Sequence record: NC_048196.1
DNA: 64,000 bases
Direction: 5' to 3' (one strand)
From: Escherichia phage vB_EcoM_Schickermooser
This document shows positions 1-41,902 of this stretch, one piece after another. Within the stretch, counting starts at the first letter, position 1. Every line of letters starts with the position of its first letter. Both the position numbers and the translations under genes were made by a program. The notes under the pieces are model-generated. The model was given only the letters and a program-made list of their open reading frames with translations. It was not told where the DNA came from and searched no databases.

Positions 1-629
1 CCTGCAAAATGGTAAGTCTTTACAGATCTTGACCAACCTGTTTTTAATACTTCAAAAATAGCTTCTGCTAAATCTGGGGCATATGTTGGACAAGAGAACT
101 GATCTGCAACGATAGTAAAATCACGTTGTCCATCATTATAGCGAGACAACATAGTTTTTAGAAAGTTATTTCCAAATTCACTATATACAGACGCTGTTCG
201 AATAATATATGCGTTCGGGTTAACTCCTCGCACCATTTTTTCACCGAGTTCTTTCGTATACCCATAATTGTTTATCGGGTTAGGTGTAGTATCTTCAAAA
301 ATAGGATGAGAATAATTAAAAATATAGTCTGTAGAAATATGCACAAAATCAATTTTAAGTTTGCTGCACACTGCCGCAATATTTGCAGGGCCATAGGCAT
401 TAACAGCCAAAGCAGTAGCAAAATCATGTTCTGCTTTATCTACAGCCGTATAAGCAGCGCAATTAATAACACCATCTACATAATCTTCAATAATAGCGTT
501 TCGCACAGCTTCAAAATTTGTAATATCTACACGTTCTTTAGGATAAATTAAAGACACATTTGAAGGAGCCACTTTACGTAAAGCTTGTCCCAGTTGTCCA
601 TTACCACCCAATACCAGATATGTTAGCAT
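1..629 (-). CDS. rmlD: dTDP-4-dehydrorhamnose reductase, partial (3' end beyond window start)
   Basis: Minus-strand ORF with ATG at 629; hand translation [15 protein letters not shown]... shows Rossmann GxxGxxG, AAYTAVDKAE and STDY motifs typical of RmlD; last gene of rml operon. Confidence 0.7.
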   Translation of the reverse strand, partial: MLTYLVLGGNGQLGQALRKVAPSNVSLIYPKERVDITNFEAVRNAIIEDYVDGVINCAAYTAVDKAEHDFATALAVNAYGPANIAAVCSKLKIDFVHISTDYIFNYSHPIFEDTTPNPINNYGYTKELGEKMVRGVNPNAYIIRTASVYSEFGNNFLKTMLSRYNDGQRDFTIVADQFSCPTYAPDLAEAIFEVLKTGWSRSVKTYHFA

Positions 630-1189
630 ACACCCTCGCTACGTAGCTGTTGAAAAGACTTAGCCATTGCATCTTTTGTTGATAAGATAGGTTTAAAATC
701 TTCGTCAAAAATCATATCGAAGCCCCAATCAATCCCTATATCAGGATCATCCCAACGTAAACTTTGTTCGCTGGAAGGGTCGTATGGAGTTGTGCATTTG
801 TATTCGAAGATAGCATCCATACTCAACACTATAAAACCATGTGCCAAACCAGGTGGAAGCCAGAACTGTGTATGGTGTCGTGCACGAAGAACAACACCGT
901 CCCAAGCACCGTAAGTAGGACTATCTTTACGTAGGTCTACAGCGAAATCCAATACTTCCCCACTTACACAACGAACAAGCTTACCTTGCGGATTATTTGT
1001 TTGAAAGTGCATTCCTCGCAAAACACCGAAGTTTGATTTAGACATGTTATCTTGAACGAAAGTTTGTCTACCAATGATATCTTCATATTTTTGTTCATTA
1101 TATGTTTCTAAAAAGAAACCACGGTCATCTTTATAAACGTCTGGTTTGATAATTACCGCACCTTCAATTTTTGTTTTTTCTACTTTCAT
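623..1189 (-). CDS. rmlC: dTDP-4-dehydrorhamnose 3,5-epimerase
   Basis: Track ORF 623..1309; likely true start at internal [26 protein letters not shown] (RmlC N-terminus), RBS GGAGGG upstream, ATGA overlap with rmlA stop. Confidence 0.8.
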
Positions 1190-2064
1190 TTTCCCTCCGC
1201 TAATTTGAGTAGGTATTGCCCGTACTCTGTTTTCTTCAGTGAGTTTCCATGGTAGACCAAAGTCTCTAAAGAAATCCACCCTTTTTTGAAAGCAATTTCT
1301 TCCAGGCACGCAATCTTCAATCCTTGACAGTTCTCAATAGTCTGCACGAATTGACCAGCTTCCATCAGACTGGCGTGTGTTCCTGTGTCAAGCCAAGTAA
1401 ATCCTCGTCCGAGAACTTCTACTTGTAACTTCCTGTCTTCGAGGTAGCTGCGATTGATATCGGTGATCTCCAGTTCTCCACGCGCGGAAGGGGTTACTTC
1501 TAATGCACGTTGAATAACAGAGTTATCATAGAAATATAAACCTGTGACAGCATAATCTGATTTAGGATTTTCAGGTTTCTCTTCAATAGAAATAACTTGA
1601 CGATTACTCCCAAATTCAACCACACCGAATCGTTCAGGATCTTTCACCAAACACCCGAAGATACAAGCTCCGCCCCAAACATCTACCATCTCACTAGCGT
1701 TAATCAGTAGTTTACCAAAGCTTTGTCCGAAGAATAGGTTGTCACCTAAAATAAGAGCAACAGAGTCTTCTCCGATAAAATCTTTACCGATGATGAAAGC
1801 GTCCGCAAGACCTCGTGGCTCGGATTGGATTGCGTAAGTGAGTTTTATCCCAAACATAGACCCATCTCCAAGAAGATGCTCAAAGTCTTCCTGATCGCCT
1901 GGTGTGGTGATGATTAAGATATCCTTAATGTCAGCCAACATCAATACCGATAAGGGGTAGTAGATCATAGGTTTGTCATACACAGGGAGCAATTGCTTGC
2001 TCACACTGCGTGTTACCGGATGAAGGCGGGTTCCACTTCCTCCCGCCAAAATAATACCTTTCAT
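1186..2064 (-). CDS. rmlA: glucose-1-phosphate thymidylyltransferase
   Basis: 292 aa; [18 protein letters not shown]...[17 protein letters not shown] nucleotidyltransferase signature of RmlA. Confidence 0.9.
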
Positions 2065-2072
2065 AACCCTCC

Positions 2073-3065
2073 TTAAATCTTCTTACTCCACCATTGAGGG
2101 TTGTTTAAGTACCATTCAATCGTTGAGTAGAGATCTTGTTCAAATGTAGAGTTTGCACTCCAACCCAGTTCAGACTCTATTTTAGAAGGATTGATTTCAT
2201 AACGCAAGTCATGTCCTTTACGATCTTCAACAAAAGTTATCAAGTTGGAAGAAGGGTAGGTTCCTGCTTCTGGATGTACAGCATCCATGTAGTCACAAAC
2301 CATATAGATGATCTCCATATTGGTTTTGGGATTACGTGTTCCAACATTATACGTTTGACCTGGTTCTCCACCTGTTGCCACTTGAAGAATAGCTCGCGCA
2401 TGATCCTCAACAAAAAGCCAGTCTCGCACCTGATCGCCTTTACCATACACCGGAATCTCTTTATTCGTCAAGATACTTGTGATGATTTTTGGGATCAGCT
2501 TTTCTGGATGTTGATAAGGTCCAAAGTTATTGGAGCAGTTGGTTATCACAACAGGTAAACCGTAGGTACGGTACCAAGCTTTCACAAGATGGTCAGATGC
2601 TGCCTTAGACGCACTGTACGGGCTTGAAGGCGCATAAGCTGTCTCTTCGGTAAAGGGAACGCCAGAGTCTGCCATATCGCCGTACACTTCGTCTGTGGAG
2701 ACATGTACGAACATCTTAAGTTTATTTTTTGGGAGGAGCCTTGCAGCTTCCAATAAATTGTATGTACCAATAATATTGGAGTCGATGAAAACTCGTGGAT
2801 TCTTGATAGAATTATCCACATGACTCTCTGCCGCTAAGTGAATGATGAAATCGGGATTGCACTCTACTACTAAACTTTTGACCTGGGTTTCGTTTGCCAA
2901 ATCTGTTATGCTTAGTTTAACGTGAGTGATATCGCCTACATTCTCAATATCTGCTGCATAGCCCATCTTATCAACGACAAAAACTTCGTTATTGGGATCT
3001 TGACAAAGAGAGCGCACCACGGCACTCCCAATAAAACCAAGACCACCTGTTACCAGATAGCGCAT
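2073..3065 (-). CDS. rmlB: dTDP-glucose 4,6-dehydratase
   Basis: 330 aa; N-terminal TGGLGFIGS Rossmann motif, SDR catalytic YxxxK (YSASK), length typical of RmlB. Confidence 0.9.
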
Positions 3066-37131: not shown

Positions 37132-38505
37132 ATGGCAACTTTTCGTGAAAAGGTAGCAACCGTAACTTTACTGTATGGTGCTACATCAATTCGTGAAACC
37201 CAGTTCGATATTCCCCTGATCCTTACAGGTCAGAACGTAACTGGCGAAGCGATTCAATATTACTCTTCTTCCGATGCACTTTTGGAAGCAGGTTATGGAT
37301 TAAATGATCCAGCGTATATTATGGCAGTCAAACTGTTTAACGGTTTGTTCCCACCAGATCAAGTTATGGTTGGTAAGCGTGAAGTTACAAACTTTACTCT
37401 AACTCCAATCGTAGAAGATAGTGCAACTTACACAATTACCATCAAAAATGGTACCAAGAAAAAAGAATTTAAATTCATTGCTGATGACACTGCAACTGCA
37501 CAAGAGATTGTAGTTGGTCTGACTGAAATGATCAATGCAGATCTTGTTTATGGCCCACTGTTTACAGTAGCTAACAACGGCGCTGCAATGACTTTCACTC
37601 CAGTAGAAGGTAAGTTTGGTTCTATTGACAGCACAGGTTTCACTCAAGAAACTGTCTATGCTAATGCTATTACGGAAGATATTGCTGCTCTGCATGATAT
37701 TGATAGTAGCTGGTTCTGGACCCTTTCAGATTCCCATGAAACAGAAGATATTCTAGCTTTGGCTGCATGGGTAGAAGAGAATGATAAAGTTTACTTCTTC
37801 TCTAGTTCTGAACCTGGAATTAAAACGAAAGCAGAAGATAACGTTCTGGAACGACTGAATGATCTCGGTTATAATAACACTTGCTTTGCATTGTGGATGA
37901 CCGATGCAGATTCTGTATTCCCAGAAGCAGCAGTTGTTGGTGCTATCTGTTCTCGTCAACCTGGTTTAACTACCCTTCACGGTAAAACACTGGTAGGTGT
38001 AGAGATCGAGAAACTGGATCAGACTTCGGAAAACAATATTGTTCAACAGAACGGTAACATCTATCGTAAAGAGCATGGAACTCTGTTCTATCGTGATGGA
38101 TTGATGGTTAGCGGTTTCTTTGTTGACTATGTTGTTCATGCTTTGTGGTTTAAAGCTCGCACAGAAGAATCACTGTTTACACTGTTTAAACAACAGTCTA
38201 TGCTGGGTGGTGGTGTTCGTGCTACTTCAAACGGTCTAGCTTTGATTCGACAAGCTGTTCTGGCTAACCCGATCCAAGTAGGTATCCTCAACGGTTCCAT
38301 CGCTAATGAAGTTGTTACTTCTGAAGAGACTGGTTTGCGTGTCGATCTGAAACCTATTGTTTATATTCCTTCTCGTGCCGATATGACCGATGCGCAAATC
38401 AATGCTCGTCTGGTTGATGGGATGAAGATTGAATATGTTTACGCTGGCTTCTTCCATTACGTTAAAGTTCAGGTCAACGTCCTGACTAACCGTACTGCAA
38501 ACTAA
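37132..38505 (+). CDS. tail sheath protein
   Basis: 457 aa, host-optimal codons, directly upstream of tube, chaperone and tape measure genes. Confidence 0.55.
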   Translation: MATFREKVATVTLLYGATSIRETQFDIPLILTGQNVTGEAIQYYSSSDALLEAGYGLNDPAYIMAVKLFNGLFPPDQVMVGKREVTNFTLTPIVEDSATYTITIKNGTKKKEFKFIADDTATAQEIVVGLTEMINADLVYGPLFTVANNGAAMTFTPVEGKFGSIDSTGFTQETVYANAITEDIAALHDIDSSWFWTLSDSHETEDILALAAWVEENDKVYFFSSSEPGIKTKAEDNVLERLNDLGYNNTCFALWMTDADSVFPEAAVVGAICSRQPGLTTLHGKTLVGVEIEKLDQTSENNIVQQNGNIYRKEHGTLFYRDGLMVSGFFVDYVVHALWFKARTEESLFTLFKQQSMLGGGVRATSNGLALIRQAVLANPIQVGILNGSIANEVVTSEETGLRVDLKPIVYIPSRADMTDAQINARLVDGMKIEYVYAGFFHYVKVQVNVLTNRTAN

Positions 38506-38551: not shown

Positions 38552-39031
38552 ATGGATAAAATGCTTACTGGCGTAATGGCCTACGACCCATCTCAAGTTA
38601 TCCTTTCATTAGGTGGTTGGGAACCGTGGGGTTTTGCGGCTGATACTAAAATCGTTATTGCTAAATCTAACGATATTATCAACCCTTATTCAGGGACTGA
38701 TGGGGACGTTTCATTAGCTTTGAGTCGTAACCGTTTGGGAACACTCACAATGTCTTTGCAACGCACATCTCCAGCTAACGAAGTACTTGCAACATATGCA
38801 CAAACAATGTATTCTACTCGTCAAGTAGCATTCAGTGTTTACTTGGAAGACCCACGTGGCTATTACATTAGCACGATTGGATGGATTCAAAGTCAGCCTG
38901 AAGATACTATTGGCGAAATGATTACAGAGAACCAATGGGTTATTGGTCTTAAAGATGCAAGCCTTCTGCGTAATGAAGTTGGTGTAGGTTTGAGCACCCT
39001 TAACTCAATCTCTGCTCTGACAATTCAATAA
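38552..39031 (+). CDS. tail tube protein
   Basis: 159 aa immediately after sheath gene. Confidence 0.5.
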   Translation: MDKMLTGVMAYDPSQVILSLGGWEPWGFAADTKIVIAKSNDIINPYSGTDGDVSLALSRNRLGTLTMSLQRTSPANEVLATYAQTMYSTRQVAFSVYLEDPRGYYISTIGWIQSQPEDTIGEMITENQWVIGLKDASLLRNEVGVGLSTLNSISALTIQ

Positions 39032-39039
39032 TAAATAAA

Positions 39040-39059
39040 GGGCAGAAATGCCCTTTTTT
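39040..39059 (+). terminator. rho-independent terminator after tube gene
   Basis: GGGCAGAAATGCCCTTTTTT. Confidence 0.6.
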
Positions 39060-39077
39060 ATCATTAGAGAGGAAAAT

Positions 39078-39560
39078 ATGTCACAAGAACAAGATAACAC
39101 AATTCAAAAATATGCTCGACCAGAAGAAGTAGTTGAGATTCCGTTAGATGGAAACAGATCTGTTACTTTCCGTATTATGAAGTGGAGTCCATCTAAAGTG
39201 TTTGACAGGATTCCAGAATTAGGTAGTGTTCTGGTTGTTCCTATGACTATGTATAGCACAGCAACAATGTCCGCAGACGAAGACCTTGAGTCACGTATTG
39301 CTATGGCACTGATCCAACTTTTTGCAGGTTTGGAAGAAAAGAATTTAACTGTCTTTTTGCGTAAAATTTTAGATGAGGTTTATACCCAAGACGGTTATAA
39401 CGTTGCAGAAAATTTTGATGAATTATTTATGGCTCACCCAGAACTAGTGTTAGATCTTACTGCTAAAGTTCTGGAGGTAAACTACGGCCCTTTTTTCAAA
39501 CGAGGTTTCGGAAAACTGTTCACACAGCTTCAGGCGATGACGAGTTTAGCAGCAAATTAA
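39078..39560 (+). CDS. tail assembly chaperone (zero-frame product)
   Basis: ATG with GAGAGGAAAA RBS; track start 39048 overlaps terminator; upstream of tape measure. Confidence 0.5.
   Translation: MSQEQDNTIQKYARPEEVVEIPLDGNRSVTFRIMKWSPSKVFDRIPELGSVLVVPMTMYSTATMSADEDLESRIAMALIQLFAGLEEKNLTVFLRKILDEVYTQDGYNVAENFDELFMAHPELVLDLTAKVLEVNYGPFFKRGFGKLFTQLQAMTSLAAN
39491..39497 (+). other. candidate -1 frameshift slippery heptamer T TTT TTC
   Basis: Zero-frame codons TTT TTC; -1 frame open from 39467 to 39826. Confidence 0.45.
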
Positions 39561-39607
39561 CACCTGCGATTGAACATGCTATCGACACAGCAACGAAAAC
39601 CCTTACT

Positions 39608-39826
39608 TTGAAGTGGTATGAGGTTATTCTTTGCAAAGTCGTTAAAGATACCTCGGAAACACTGAAAACATTGGATAACTACGGTGTAGATTATCTTTTA
39701 AAACTATATGAGTATTTAACATACGAAGAGTATGTTGAAGCCATGTATGTTAAAGACACTTCAATAAAGAGAAAACATCAAAACCAGACAAATAAAATGT
39801 CAGATTTGTTTAAGAAACTTGTTTAA
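39608..39826 (+). CDS. -1 frame extension of tail assembly chaperone
   Basis: -1 frame open from 39467, overlapping end of 39078..39560; track ORF begins at TTG. Confidence 0.4.
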   Translation: MKWYEVILCKVVKDTSETLKTLDNYGVDYLLKLYEYLTYEEYVEAMYVKDTSIKRKHQNQTNKMSDLFKKLV

Positions 39827-39846
39827 TCCAACACGAGGAACATACT

Positions 39847-41835
39847 TTGTTAGAAATTAACGCCTCCAGAATTAGTAACGTGGTTACGTTTAAGGTGGAC
39901 AAGAACAGTCTCAAGGAAGCAAAAGATGCCGTGTTGAGTGTTCAGAAGTTTGCAAATAAAATGCAACCCACTATGAACATGACCAAGTTTAGACAACAAA
40001 TGAAAGAGATTGAGCGTGAACTTAAGAAAGCTCAAACTCAAAGTCAAAAACCTATGCGAGCACCTACTCCCGCCGGAGCGGGTGCTCCTGTAGGAGGATC
40101 TGGTAGACCTAGAACTCCTAAAACCCCGCAAGGAAGAGAAGAAGAAAAAGCTCGTAAAGCTGCTGAACGCGAAGCTAAAGCAGCAGCACGTAGGGAAGAT
40201 TTAGGTAATCTTCGTTTGCAGAACTTTAACTACAGAGCAAGAGCATTTAGTAAAGCCAGTCCTGGCGCTATGCAAGAAGCTAGGGACGTTATGGGTAAAG
40301 CTGTAGAGCAATACAAAAAGGGTGAAATAACTCTTCAACGTATGAACCAAGCTCTTGCTCACCAGTTGGATGCTTTACGCAGATCTCATCGTGAAAAGAA
40401 TGCTGAAATAGAAGACGAGGTTCGCGGTCGTCGCCGTATTCGTAGAGAGCTAGAAGCAGAAGCTAAAATGCGTATACGTATGCGAAATCGTGAACTTAGA
40501 GATATAGAACGCAACCGTAAGCGTGAATTAGCTCAACAGAAACGTGATCGTGATCGTAGATACGGACAATTAAAAGAAGGTGCAGCAGGTCTTAATCCAC
40601 GCATGATTGCATCCTCTTTGATAGGTGCTGGGCTGTTTGCAGGTGGTTCTGTAGTTGGTAACACGTTGATGAATACTAACGAAAGAATTAAACTTGTAAG
40701 TCGTGGTGCTGAAAACGTTCAGACAAACGCCAACGCTATTTTGGCAATGACAGCTTGGGGTGAACAGAACGGTGTAGACTCTGCAAATATTATTAAATCA
40801 ATAGATAATATTAAAGACGTTCGTGAACGTCTTGGTAATACCGTTTTAGCTGCAAAGTGGAATGAGAAAGAAGGGAAGTGGAAAGGCGGTGATAATGGCA
40901 TAACTGACATTATGAACTTGTTTGGATGGAATCCAGAACAGCTTAAACCTTTACAGAACGATCCTTTAGCTTTTATTCAGGCTACTGTTAATGAAGGTGA
41001 GCGTCGAGGTATGAACTCTGCTCAAATCGGGCGACTTCTTGAAAACCTTGGTGATGACCTTATGCACTACCAACGTATGTTTAGTAAAAACGGCGAAGGG
41101 TATAATGAAGTATTGAAAATGCTTCAAAGAACAGGTGCAACATTAACTCAAGAACAAATAGATGCTTCTAAAGAGTTTACTCGTTTTGCTGCAACAGTTC
41201 AGCTTGTAGGTCAAGGTATGCAGAACCACTTCTTAGAGGGTTTTGTGAAAGCCTTACCTAAAGATGATTCTTGGTTGGATAACGTTAAAGTGCTAGATCA
41301 GTTTGCCAAAGATTTAGGTGAAGAACTCGGTAAGACAACAGTTCAATTAGGAGGTTTTGCTAAAGAATTAGGAGATGGCTTCGGATCTTTTACCAATTGG
41401 CTTAAAGAAACATTCCCAGATACATTCGGAGACAACACAGATCCTAATAAATCTATGGCACAAAAAGCATACGAGGCAACGCAAAGTGGAGACAGCAATC
41501 CTGTAGCAGATTGGTTGTACAATTTAACAGGTATTGATACACAAGACATTGGTCGTATGTGGAGAGGAGAACAAACAAGGACACGTGCTTTTGGATTTGG
41601 TAATCCTCTTGAAGATTTACGTGAATCAGCCTATACACCTAACGTAAGTTTGGCTCGTAATCAACCTGTTGTTGAGAATACGGTAGCAATACCAAGTGAT
41701 CTTATCAAAGTTACGATCAGCCCTTCTTCAGAGTTTGGAAATATTCTTGATGCAAGAATTCAAAATAGCGGAAATAGCATTTTCCAACGTTTGTCTCTTT
41801 CAACTCTAAGTGGACAATCTAACACTGGTGGTTAA
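39847..41835 (+). CDS. tail tape measure protein
   Basis: 662 aa, TTG start, coiled-coil Arg/Glu-rich N-terminal third, position after chaperones. Confidence 0.55.
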   Translation: MLEINASRISNVVTFKVDKNSLKEAKDAVLSVQKFANKMQPTMNMTKFRQQMKEIERELKKAQTQSQKPMRAPTPAGAGAPVGGSGRPRTPKTPQGREEEKARKAAEREAKAAARREDLGNLRLQNFNYRARAFSKASPGAMQEARDVMGKAVEQYKKGEITLQRMNQALAHQLDALRRSHREKNAEIEDEVRGRRRIRRELEAEAKMRIRMRNRELRDIERNRKRELAQQKRDRDRRYGQLKEGAAGLNPRMIASSLIGAGLFAGGSVVGNTLMNTNERIKLVSRGAENVQTNANAILAMTAWGEQNGVDSANIIKSIDNIKDVRERLGNTVLAAKWNEKEGKWKGGDNGITDIMNLFGWNPEQLKPLQNDPLAFIQATVNEGERRGMNSAQIGRLLENLGDDLMHYQRMFSKNGEGYNEVLKMLQRTGATLTQEQIDASKEFTRFAATVQLVGQGMQNHFLEGFVKALPKDDSWLDNVKVLDQFAKDLGEELGKTTVQLGGFAKELGDGFGSFTNWLKETFPDTFGDNTDPNKSMAQKAYEATQSGDSNPVADWLYNLTGIDTQDIGRMWRGEQTRTRAFGFGNPLEDLRESAYTPNVSLARNQPVVENTVAIPSDLIKVTISPSSEFGNILDARIQNSGNSIFQRLSLSTLSGQSNTGG

Positions 41836-41842
41836 TAAAATA

Positions 41843-41866
41843 CCTCGCTTCGGCGGGGTTTTTTCG
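41843..41866 (+). terminator. rho-independent terminator after tape measure gene
   Basis: CCTCGCTTCGGCGGGGTTTTTT. Confidence 0.55.
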
Positions 41867-41872
41867 TTTCCC

Positions 41873-41902
41873 TTGACACGAAGTTTCTATATGTGTTACA
41901 AT
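41873..41902 (+). promoter_or_regulatory. sigma70-like promoter TTGACA-18nt-TACAAT
   Basis: Read directly upstream of baseplate block. Confidence 0.5.

What the first reader, a model, noticed from the sequence alone, without database searches (positions are those of the whole stretch)
39078..39826. Programmed -1 frameshift candidate in tail assembly chaperone
The heptamer T-TTT-TTC (39491-39497) lies in zero-frame codons TTT TTC, and the -1 frame is open from 39467 to 39826. Slippage would fuse the 161-aa chaperone to about 110 extra residues, the conserved chaperone arrangement upstream of tape measure genes.
Basis: partly seen in the sequence, partly recalled or inferred. Interest (0 to 1): 0.45.

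Follow-up and report, generated by a model that had tools for sequence, protein, structure and literature searches.

The report
Unannotated tail chaperone -1 frameshift, phAPEC8
This is the classic phage trick of making a short and a long tail-assembly chaperone from one gene by a programmed -1 ribosomal slip; it is almost certainly real in phage phAPEC8 and conserved in all its relatives, but public annotations of this lineage miss it, so it is an ordinary mechanism and an annotation gap.

Summary
The window is Escherichia phage phAPEC8 (100% identical to LR597654.1). A 160-aa tail assembly chaperone gene (39078-39560, Pfam PF21822) lies between the tail tube gene and the tape measure gene. 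It carries T_TTT_TTC (39491-39497) in the zero frame, overlapped by a second in-frame heptamer, C_CCT_TTT (39488-39494). The -1 frame is open from 39467 to 39826.

A -1 slip at either heptamer gives the same 249-aa product: 140 residues of G plus 109 new residues.

Comparative evidence is strong. All 53 related loci examined (Stephanstirmvirinae, Vequintavirinae, IMG/VR contigs) keep TTTTTTC in the same frame, followed by a 108-149-codon -1 ORF that ends just before the tape measure gene. The -1 part is conserved as protein upstream of any start codon, and 20 of 42 alleles have no start codon there at all. Citrobacter phage Moogle has a homologous chaperone annotated as a joined CDS at the same site.

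No downstream RNA structure was found. An upstream GGAGG is not universally conserved.

No Stephanstirmvirinae or Vequintavirinae record I inspected annotates the fusion.

Verdict: a genuine lambda G/GT-type -1 frameshift and a new member of a known kind. Interest is low to moderate.

The parts
38552..39031 (+). Tail tube (major tail) gene, immediately upstream of the chaperone
   Evidence: ORF list. It matches phrog_280 and Pfam KPP10_Orf10. It is annotated 'Major tail protein' or 'tail tube' in LR597654.1 and SKA64.
39037..39056 (+). Terminator-like hairpin plus T run between the tube gene and the chaperone. It probably attenuates transcription, lowering chaperone and tape measure expression relative to tube (inferred).
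   Evidence: Scan. The FBKp34 record annotates a terminator at the same position.
39078..39560 (+). Gene G: the short tail assembly chaperone, 160 aa. Its ATG follows a GAGAGGA Shine-Dalgarno sequence.
39473..39478 (+). Internal Shine-Dalgarno-like GGAGGT, 10 nt 5' of C_CCT_TTT and 13 nt 5' of T_TTT_TTC. A possible lineage-specific stimulator (inferred, not conserved everywhere).
   Evidence: An SD-like core is present at this place in 24 of 33 unique alleles and absent in 9. The Glu codon here is GAG although GAA outnumbers GAG 171:59 in the neighbouring structural genes.
39488..39494 (+). First in-frame slippery heptamer, C_CCT_TTT. It is present only in the phAPEC8/phi92-like (Stephanstirmvirinae-type) alleles.
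   Evidence: The motif is listed as frameshift-prone in E. coli without stimulators (PMC4066793).
39491..39497 (+). Second in-frame slippery heptamer, T_TTT_TTC. This is the universally conserved shift site.
   Evidence: It is invariant in 53 of 53 loci and 33 of 33 unique alleles. In L034 a -1-frame TAG abuts it on the 5' side, so the shift cannot occur upstream of it. It is at the same site as the joined CDS of phage Moogle.
39497..39826 (+). T segment: 109 codons plus stop in the -1 frame. These are translated only as the C-terminal extension of G. GT is join(39078..39497, 39497..39826), 249 aa.
   Evidence: It is conserved as protein down to 27-33% identity. It matches phrog_16039 and phrog_10409. 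No start codon is conserved before the invariant Trp.
39847..41835 (+). Tape measure protein gene (TTG start with a GAGGA SD), 20 nt after the T stop
   Evidence: phrog_16051 tail length tape measure protein, 1246 bits. Annotation. Start context.

Best explanation
The region encodes the two forms of the phAPEC8 tail assembly chaperone.

Most ribosomes translate 39078-39560 and release the 160-aa short form (G). A minority slip back one nucleotide while the two tRNA-Phe (or tRNA-Pro and tRNA-Phe) occupy CC-CUU-UUU-UC. The slip site is U_UUU_UUC at 39491-39497, with the overlapping C_CCU_UUU at 39488-39494 as an equivalent second chance in this lineage. These ribosomes then read CAA ACG AGG... 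in the -1 frame to the TAA at 39824-39826. The product is a 249-aa long form (GT): residues 1-140 of G plus 109 new residues.

Shown here: the anatomy, the register, the nucleotide-level conservation of the site, protein-level conservation of both parts across the junction, the absence of an independent start, and homology to an annotated frameshifted chaperone.

Inferred from established knowledge of lambda G/GT (Levin 1993; Xu, Hendrix and Duda 2004, 2013, 2014, as summarised in PMC5009743):
- The G part of both forms coats the tape measure protein.
- The T part recruits tail tube subunits.
- The low, fixed slip frequency sets the G:GT ratio needed for tail assembly.
- Neither protein ends up in the virion.

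The slip appears to rely on the heptamer alone, because no conserved downstream RNA structure was found. It may be helped in phAPEC8 by the internal GGAGGU 10-13 nt upstream.
For: - Identity and context: the window is phAPEC8, with gene order sheath, tube, chaperone, tape measure.
- Register and open frame.
- Conservation of the arrangement: a 2-piece tblastn match of the fused product was found in Stephanstirmvirinae and Vequintavirinae among 357 matching phage records.
- Conservation of the site: T_TTT_TTC is in register, inside the overlap, in 13 of 13 GenBank representatives and 40 of 40 IMG/VR loci. Across 33 unique alleles the heptamer is the only fully invariant 7-nt block in 148 nt. 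The codon before it always ends in T (CCT, TGT or AGT). Phe codon usage is TTT 95: TTC 60, so the invariance is not explained by codon usage.
- The -1 frame is read soon after the heptamer: -1-frame Arg-Phe-Arg after the shift is invariant in the 11-sequence protein alignment. The base 5' of the conserved GGTTT is A or C in 33 of 33 alleles, which keeps the first Arg. The FV3 and L034 C-to-A change is synonymous in -1 but changes Phe to Leu in frame 0.
- The shift is bounded on the 5' side by a -1-frame TAG in L034.
- The T part alone is significantly similar among genera, at E 7e-20 to 7e-4 scaled to a 1e9-residue database.
- No start codon lies before the invariant Trp in 20 of 42 alleles, and there is no SD before the TTG at 39608.
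- A profile of these GT proteins aligns with Moogle's annotated frameshift product across the junction (hhalign probability 96.8%, E 3e-10). All belong to PF21822, whose model ends at the slip site.
- U_UUU_UUC and C_CCU_UUU are frameshift-prone in E. coli without stimulators (PMC4066793).
- The same '-1 PRF at GTTTTT' was proposed for the related Vandenendeviridae and Andersonviridae (PMC12846349).
Against: - There is no protein-level or reporter evidence for this phage or its subfamily in anything I could find.
- No fused protein exists among the 41 hits in the 5.8-billion-protein collection. That reflects how genes are called, but it also means nobody has recorded the product.
- No downstream stimulatory structure was found: z = +0.23 against shuffles, alifold gave only one weak 5-pair stem about 80 nt downstream in one set and nothing in the other, and Rfam gave no relevant match (one weak sRNA hit outside the chaperone gene). 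Efficiency may therefore be low and cannot be estimated.
- Sequence alone cannot strictly separate a ribosomal -1 slip from RNA polymerase adding one U in the U6 run.
- One of the two peptide patterns used to fetch the IMG/VR loci contained the Phe-Phe motif, so that set is partly ascertained on the amino acids, though not on the codons.
Confidence: 0.87

Rival explanations
1. Transcriptional slippage. RNA polymerase occasionally inserts one extra U while copying the T6 run (39491-39496). A fraction of mRNAs then encode GT in a single frame, and the ribosome does not slip.
For: The site is a homopolymer run, and the protein outcome would be identical. [quoted passage not shown] 2022, known to me only by its title as cited in PMC12846349 and PMC10885494; I could not read the paper).
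Against: - The run is only 6 nt. From my own knowledge, efficient slippage by bacterial RNA polymerase needs about 8-9 or more.
- The run never lengthens in any of 33 unique alleles. It is always flanked by a non-T on the 5' side and by C on the 3' side.
- The run is always in exact X_XXY_YYZ register with Phe-Phe codons TTT TTC. Register matters for tandem tRNA slippage but not for a polymerase.
- Both heptamers are experimentally shift-prone on E. coli ribosomes.
Confidence: 0.07
2. Two separate genes. The downstream ORF is translated on its own from the TTG at 39608 (72 aa), the ATT at 39569 (as in RefSeq ESCO13), or by reinitiation after the G stop. There is no fusion protein.
For: This is how all sampled records of this lineage annotate it, as 'hypothetical protein (x2)' or 'tail assembly chaperone | hypothetical protein'. 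phrog_16039 models exactly the 72-aa ORF.
Against: - Conserved -1-frame residues (Arg-Phe-Arg after the heptamer, then A168, A172, L178) lie upstream of the TTG.
- There is no SD before the TTG or the ATT.
- 20 of 42 alleles have no ATG/GTG/TTG between the heptamer and the invariant Trp. Where one exists its position is not conserved.
- By my reading of the sequences, the Ile codon matching the ATT is ATC or ATA in relatives.
- Several annotators call no downstream gene at all.
- The -1 frame stays open back to the heptamer in every genome but no further in L034.
Confidence: 0.03
3. Chance open frame or assembly error. The -1 ORF is non-coding spacer, or the two ORFs are one gene split by a sequencing indel in the T run.
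For: Homopolymer runs are error-prone in some sequencing chemistries. Within one window, a heptamer followed by a long -1 ORF is not very improbable.
Against: The same T6 length and the same two-frame layout occur in more than 50 independently sequenced genomes and contigs. The 0-frame tail of G after the heptamer is itself conserved as protein, so G really does end at 39560. The T part is conserved as protein at significant E-values.
Confidence: 0.01

Closest known systems
Citrobacter phage Moogle 'tape measure chaperone' (KM236239, CPT_Moogle67/68) and the FelixO1-like/Andersonviridae and Vandenendeviridae chaperones discussed in PMC12846349
   Same: It belongs to the same Pfam family, PF21822. 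It has the same position between the tube and tape measure genes, and the same heptamer in the same motif (ANFGSFF / AGT TTT TTC versus VNYGPFF / CCT TTT TTC). The fused products align across the junction (hhalign 96.8%, E 3e-10). Moogle's GenBank record already joins the two pieces (flag j2, 212 aa, equal to my reconstruction). PMC12846349 reports an invariant GTTTTT and an always-open -1 frame in 56 unique alleles from 159 Vandenendeviridae genomes, and the same motif in an alignment of 231 Andersonviridae phages.
   Different: Sequence identity is only about 23%. phAPEC8 and its subfamily have CCC rather than G before the T run, which creates a second overlapping heptamer, C_CCU_UUU. The linker after the shift is shorter than in Vequintavirinae. 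The shift is not annotated in any Stephanstirmvirinae or Vequintavirinae record I sampled, and the 2025 paper does not report it for these two subfamilies.
Bacteriophage lambda G/GT (Levin, Hendrix and Casjens 1993; Xu, Hendrix and Duda 2004, 2013, 2014)
   Same: Two overlapping ORFs lie between the major tail and tape measure genes. [quoted passage not shown] The result is a short abundant form and a long rare form sharing the N-terminal domain. From my own knowledge, no stimulatory RNA structure is required in lambda. The functional model (G binds the tape measure, T binds the tube protein, ratio about 30:1, neither is in the virion) is summarised in PMC5009743.
   Different: The heptamer differs: G_GGA_AAG in lambda (my knowledge) versus U_UUU_UUC here, so different tRNAs slip (Gly/Lys versus Phe/Phe). 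There is no detectable sequence similarity; the Pfam scan gave only PF21822, a different family from lambda gpG's, and none for the T part. This is a contractile-tailed phage. The ratio and the protein interactions are untested here.
Phage P2 E / E+E' (contractile-tail phage chaperone frameshift)
   Same: It is a myophage example of the same conserved G/GT arrangement, with a -1 shift on a T-rich heptamer (my recollection is T_TTT_TTG; not checked here). PMC5009743 states that P2-type efficiency is 2-3 fold higher than lambda's.
   Different: I tested no homology to P2 E. P2 is a small temperate phage with a different tail gene order. The sequence of its site is recalled from memory, not verified.
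E. coli dnaX and IS911/IS3 -1 frameshift cassettes
   Same: They use a heptamer of the X_XXY_YYZ type read by E. coli ribosomes. phAPEC8 has an upstream SD-like GGAGGU at a spacing of 10-13 nt, as in dnaX (spacing rule from my own knowledge).
   Different: Those cassettes depend on a downstream hairpin or pseudoknot, and none is detectable here. The upstream SD-like element is absent from 9 of 33 alleles.

Membership tests
Lambda G/GT-type tail assembly chaperone with programmed -1 frameshift (Xu, Hendrix and Duda 2004) | Two ORFs located between the major tail (tube) gene and the tape measure gene | tested here: met
   Tube gene 38552-39031, G 39078-39560, -1 ORF to 39826, tape measure gene 39847-41835.
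Lambda G/GT-type tail assembly chaperone with programmed -1 frameshift (Xu, Hendrix and Duda 2004) | The second ORF overlaps the 3' end of the first in another frame and lacks its own ribosome-binding site and start | tested here: met
   There is a 94-nt overlap in the -1 frame. The first ATG/GTG/TTG start-like codon in that frame (TTG 39608) has no SD. 20 of 42 alleles have no start codon before the conserved Trp.
Lambda G/GT-type tail assembly chaperone with programmed -1 frameshift (Xu, Hendrix and Duda 2004) | A slippery sequence in the correct register inside the overlap | tested here: met
   C_CCT_TTT at 39488-94 and T_TTT_TTC at 39491-97, with zero-frame codons CCT TTT TTC. Both are shift-prone in E. 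coli (PMC4066793).
Lambda G/GT-type tail assembly chaperone with programmed -1 frameshift (Xu, Hendrix and Duda 2004) | The arrangement and the site are conserved among relatives despite sequence divergence | tested here: met
   53 of 53 loci and 33 unique alleles, with protein identity down to 23%.
Lambda G/GT-type tail assembly chaperone with programmed -1 frameshift (Xu, Hendrix and Duda 2004) | Both a short product and a frameshifted long product are made, at a fixed low ratio | not testable with these tools
   This needs a western blot, mass spectrometry or a reporter assay. No such data were found in the literature searches.
Lambda G/GT-type tail assembly chaperone with programmed -1 frameshift (Xu, Hendrix and Duda 2004) | Both products are required for tail assembly, bind the tape measure (G part) and the tube protein (T part), and are absent from virions | not testable with these tools
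   Inferred by analogy only (PMC5009743).
Pfam PF21822 Phage_TAC_15 | The sequence scores above the family's gathering threshold (22 bits) | tested here: met
   84.3 bits, E 1.3e-23, residues 29-143 matching model positions 3-125 of 127. FV3, CB7 and Moogle chaperones also match.
Tail assembly chaperone fold (HK97 gp-TAC 2OB9-like) | Structural similarity of the G domain to solved TAC structures | tested here: inconclusive
dnaX / IS-type stimulated -1 frameshift cassette | Downstream stimulatory hairpin or pseudoknot 5-9 nt after the heptamer | tested here: not met
   MFE is -17.4 kcal/mol, z = +0.23 against shuffles. Alifold predicted only one weak 5-pair stem about 80 nt downstream in the 11 Stephanstirmvirinae-type sequences and no pairs in the 14 Vequintavirinae-type sequences. 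Rfam's only match in 38900-40000 is a sub-threshold sRNA hit at 38989-39066, outside the chaperone gene.
dnaX / IS-type stimulated -1 frameshift cassette | Upstream internal Shine-Dalgarno sequence about 10-14 nt 5' of the heptamer | tested here: inconclusive
   GGAGGT at 39473-78 is at the right spacing in phAPEC8. An SD-like core is present in 24 of 33 alleles and absent in 9. It also encodes the conserved Leu-Glu-Val.
Programmed transcriptional slippage | A long homopolymer run (typically at least 8-9 nt) whose length, not register, is conserved | tested here: not met
   The run is exactly T6 in all 33 unique alleles, flanked by non-T bases, and always in X_XXY_YYZ register.

The most novel reading that the evidence does not exclude
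The T_TTT_TTC cassette of PF21822 chaperones may be an ancient frameshift module that works without RNA structure. It is frozen at the nucleotide level across at least four family-level myophage lineages: Stephanstirmvirinae, Vequintavirinae, Andersonviridae and Vandenendeviridae. Its efficiency might be set by unrecognised local elements rather than by the heptamer alone. Candidates are the invariant flanking coding context (…VNYGxFF / RFRK…, including the conserved GGUUUCG with its in-frame U_UUC tetramer 9 nt downstream), the upstream SD-like GGAGG, or the tandem overlapping heptamers unique to the phAPEC8/phi92 lineage. A less likely alternative is that the shift is made by RNA polymerase rather than the ribosome.
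Probability: 0.12. Interest if true: 0.45.

Novelty: new member of a known kind. Interest (0 to 1): 0.25.

Why it matters
The practical value is annotation. More than 130 Stephanstirmvirinae genomes, and by extension some 200 Vequintavirinae genomes, include many phage-therapy candidates. In every record I inspected, the region is listed as a 160-aa chaperone plus a spurious 'hypothetical protein' (or nothing), instead of a G/GT pair written as join(39078..39497, 39497..39826).

Correcting this removes a fake gene and adds an essential tail-assembly protein. It also gives a clean nucleotide-level character shared with FelixO1-like and PAK_P1-like phages, which supports their proposed common ancestry (PMC12846349).

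Mechanistically it adds nothing new to what lambda G/GT established. It is one more case of a U_UUU_UUC shift that seems to need no RNA structure.

Tried and rejected
- Downstream stimulator: folding 39491-39600 gave z = +0.23. RNAalifold on 11 and 14 relatives gave only one weak 5-pair stem about 80 nt downstream and no pairs respectively. Rfam gave no relevant match. No structure was found.
- A short hairpin CGAAA...TTTCG sits 2 nt after the heptamer in some Vequintavirinae. I rejected it as a stimulator because it is too close to the A site and is not kept in FV3 or CB7 (my reading).
- PDB sequence search with the GT profile: nothing below E 0.4. NCBIfam: nothing.
- The single-sequence AlphaFold model of the T part had pLDDT 48, so it was unusable and not searched. 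Alignments containing sequences from other loci cannot be submitted to that tool.
- Looking for a fused protein in the 5.8-billion-protein collection: 41 hits, none fused, all about 160 aa.
- Literature: no paper links phAPEC8, rV5, Stephanstirmvirinae or Vequintavirinae chaperones with a frameshift. Vladimirov et al. 2022 could not be read.
- The other long -1 extension in the window (G_GGA_AAA at 1188-1195, minus strand) is just the next gene overlapping the end of an RmlA-like gene.
- Independent start at the TTG or ATT: rejected.

Full report
**What the window is.** A megablast of 37000-42000 matches Escherichia phage phAPEC8_ev052 (LR597654.1) at 100% identity, and 62 other Phapecoctavirus genomes at 95-100%. 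The local gene order is neck and tail-completion genes, sheath (37132-38505), tube (38552-39031), the ORF of the finding (39078-39560), a small ORF, then the tape measure gene (39847-41835). PHROG and Pfam scans agree with this order: phrog_205 tail sheath, phrog_280 for the tube, and phrog_16051 tape measure.

**Checking the observation.** The sequence reads ...AAC TAC GGC CCT TTT TTC AAA CGA... in the frame of the ATG at 39078.
- T_TTT_TTC (39491-39497) is in exact X_XXY_YYZ register.
- The -1 frame is open from 39467 to the TAA at 39824-39826.
- The ORF encodes 160 aa, not 161.
- A second in-register heptamer, C_CCT_TTT (39488-39494), overlaps the first.
- A -1 slip at either heptamer gives the same 249-aa protein: 140 residues of G, then QTRFRKTV...KKLV, 109 residues.

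There are 63 in-frame heptamers in 61 long ORFs. Just three have a -1 continuation longer than 26 codons: the two here, and a trivial gene overlap near 1190 on the minus strand.

**Comparative evidence, which decides the case.**
- A tblastn search with the fused 249-aa product finds 357 phage records. In Phapecoctavirus, Justusliebigvirus, Klebsiella phage FBKp34 and many Vequintavirinae (rV5, FV3, KB57, Hena1, FENT2 and others) the match comes as two pieces.
- I fetched 12 GenBank representatives and 40 IMG/VR loci.
- In all 53 loci including the window, TTTTTTC sits in the chaperone frame inside the overlap. The -1 frame then runs 108-149 codons and stops just before the tape measure gene. 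The +1 frame is closed.
- Among 33 unique alleles of a 148-nt fragment, the heptamer is the only fully invariant 7-nt block.
- The preceding codon always ends in T (CCT, TGT or AGT), although the amino acid differs.
- Local Phe codon usage is TTT 95: TTC 60, so TTT TTC would not be fixed by chance over this many diverged lineages.
- One caveat: one of the two peptide patterns used to fetch the IMG/VR loci contained Phe-Phe. This biases towards the amino acids, not the codons. The GenBank set was not selected that way.

**Where the shift happens.** In locus L034 a -1-frame TAG directly abuts the heptamer, so the shift cannot be upstream of it. Just downstream, the -1 frame encodes Arg-Phe-Arg, which is invariant in the 11-sequence protein alignment (R143, F144, R145 of the fused product).
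- The base 5' of the conserved GGTTT is A or C in 33 of 33 alleles. This keeps the first Arg even though it is a synonymous third position in frame 0.
- The C-to-A change in FV3 and L034 is silent in -1 but changes Phe to Leu in frame 0.

The -1 frame is therefore already being read a few codons after the heptamer. That places the shift on T_TTT_TTC, or on the overlapping C_CCT_TTT in the phAPEC8/phi92 lineage. Further on, the overlap is dual-coding: the G tail is better conserved, and the -1 frame is a variable, often Gly/Ser-rich linker.

**Is the downstream ORF an independent gene?** The evidence says no.
- The T part is conserved as protein. The phAPEC8 T part matches the T parts of other genera at 27-65% identity, with E 2e-48 to 7e-4 on a 1e9-residue scale.
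- Conserved positions (A168, A172, L178) lie upstream of the TTG at 39608.
- That TTG, and the ATT that RefSeq uses for ESCO13, have no Shine-Dalgarno sequence. G and the tape measure gene do.
- In 20 of 42 unique alleles there is no ATG, GTG or TTG at all between the heptamer and the invariant Trp. Where one occurs, its position is not conserved.

**Stimulators.**
- The 110 nt from the heptamer fold no better than shuffled sequence (z = +0.23).
- RNAalifold predicts only one weak 5-pair stem about 80 nt downstream for the 11 Stephanstirmvirinae-type sequences, and no pairs for the 14 Vequintavirinae-type sequences.
- Rfam's only match in the region is a sub-threshold sRNA hit at 38989-39066, outside the chaperone gene.
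- Upstream, phAPEC8 has a perfect GGAGGU at 39473-39478, which is 10 and 13 nt 5' of the two heptamers. From my own knowledge this is the spacing at which the internal Shine-Dalgarno sequence of dnaX stimulates -1 shifting.
- An SD-like core is present in 24 of 33 alleles and absent in 9, and it also encodes the conserved Leu-Glu-Val. It may be a local enhancer, but it is not a defining part of the signal.
- Sharma et al. 2014 (PMC4066793) list both U_UU.U_UU.C and C_CC.U_UU.U among heptamers that give more than 0.1% shifting in E. coli without any stimulator, and that are avoided in E. coli genes.

**Comparison with what is known.** The mechanism is the conserved tail-assembly frameshift first shown for lambda G/GT and generalised by Xu, Hendrix and Duda (2004), as summarised in PMC5009743.
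- The closest annotated relative I found is Citrobacter phage Moogle. Its GenBank record has a joined 'tape measure chaperone' CDS.
- Moogle's sequence reads GCA AAC TTC GGA AGT TTT TTC, which is the same heptamer in the same motif.
- My reconstruction of the Moogle product gives 212 aa, matching the joined feature.
- A profile of the phAPEC8-type GT proteins aligns with the Moogle product across the junction (hhalign probability 96.8%, E 3e-10).
- The Moogle, FV3 and CB7 chaperones are all PF21822.
- A December 2025 paper (PMC12846349) argues for the same -1 shift at an invariant GTTTTT in Vandenendeviridae and Andersonviridae. It names Vequintavirinae and Stephanstirmvirinae as related clades but does not report the shift for them.
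- None of the Stephanstirmvirinae or Vequintavirinae records whose feature tables I read has a joined CDS here, and none of the 60 further records sampled lists two chaperone features.
- None of the 41 hits in the 5.8-billion-protein collection is a fused form.
- Literature searches linking phAPEC8 or rV5-like phages with a frameshift returned nothing relevant.

**Rival explanations.**
- Transcriptional slippage on the T6 run cannot be excluded by sequence alone. It is disfavoured by the short, never-extended run and by its strict register.
- Independent initiation is contradicted, as set out above.
- Sequencing error is excluded by the many independent genomes and by conservation of the G tail in frame 0.

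**Verdict.** I put about 0.87 on a programmed ribosomal -1 frameshift that produces a 249-aa GT protein. The frequency of the shift and the functions of the two forms are inferred by analogy and were not tested. This is a new, currently unannotated member of a well-known kind, and its value is mainly for genome annotation and phage taxonomy.

Noticed in passing
window 39037-39056 (+) and 41842-41902 (+): A terminator-like hairpin with a T run lies between the tube gene stop and the chaperone start. A second lies right after the tape measure gene and is followed by a strong sigma-70-like promoter match (TTGACA-18-TACAAT). This suggests that transcriptional attenuation lowers chaperone and tape measure expression relative to tube. 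The FBKp34 record annotates a terminator at the first position.
   Followed up: partly
window 623-3065 (-): Three consecutive ORFs whose translations read, by eye, like dTDP-rhamnose pathway enzymes (RmlB-like 2073-3065, RmlA-like 1186-2064, RmlC-like about 623-1190). They were not scanned against family libraries. An in-frame G_GGA_AAA two codons before the RmlA-like stop precedes the next gene in the -1 frame; this looks like an ordinary gene overlap.
   Followed up: partly
window 39504-39511 (+): The conserved GGTTTCGG, 7-10 nt after the heptamer in all relatives, contains an in-frame U_UUC tetramer (39506-39509). Sharma et al. rank U_UU.Y among the most shift-prone tetramers in E. coli. 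It could be a minor second slip site. Its conservation is otherwise explained by dual coding (Gly-Phe in frame 0, Arg-Phe-Arg in frame -1).
   Followed up: partly
L002 4069-4326 (NC_047770.1, equal to window 39569-39826): RefSeq ESCO13 annotates the downstream ORF from an ATT codon. Other records start it at the TTG (39608) or omit it altogether. These inconsistent starts are a symptom of the missing frameshift annotation.
   Followed up: yes
L057 (OY978784.1, Klebsiella phage vB_Kpn_K18PH07C1): This record annotates the whole chaperone region on the opposite strand, as a series of partial or pseudo 'unknown function' CDSs.
   Followed up: no
GenBank MG0656xx 'Campylobacter phage' records (hits H46, H59-H61, H126, H127): Several records labelled as Campylobacter jejuni phages carry rV5-like or phi92-like coliphage sequence at this locus. 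Identity to Escherichia phages is about as high as among the coliphages themselves, so the host labels look doubtful.
   Followed up: no
window 39847 (+): The tape measure gene starts with TTG behind a good GAGGA Shine-Dalgarno sequence, only 20 nt after the T stop codon.
   Followed up: no
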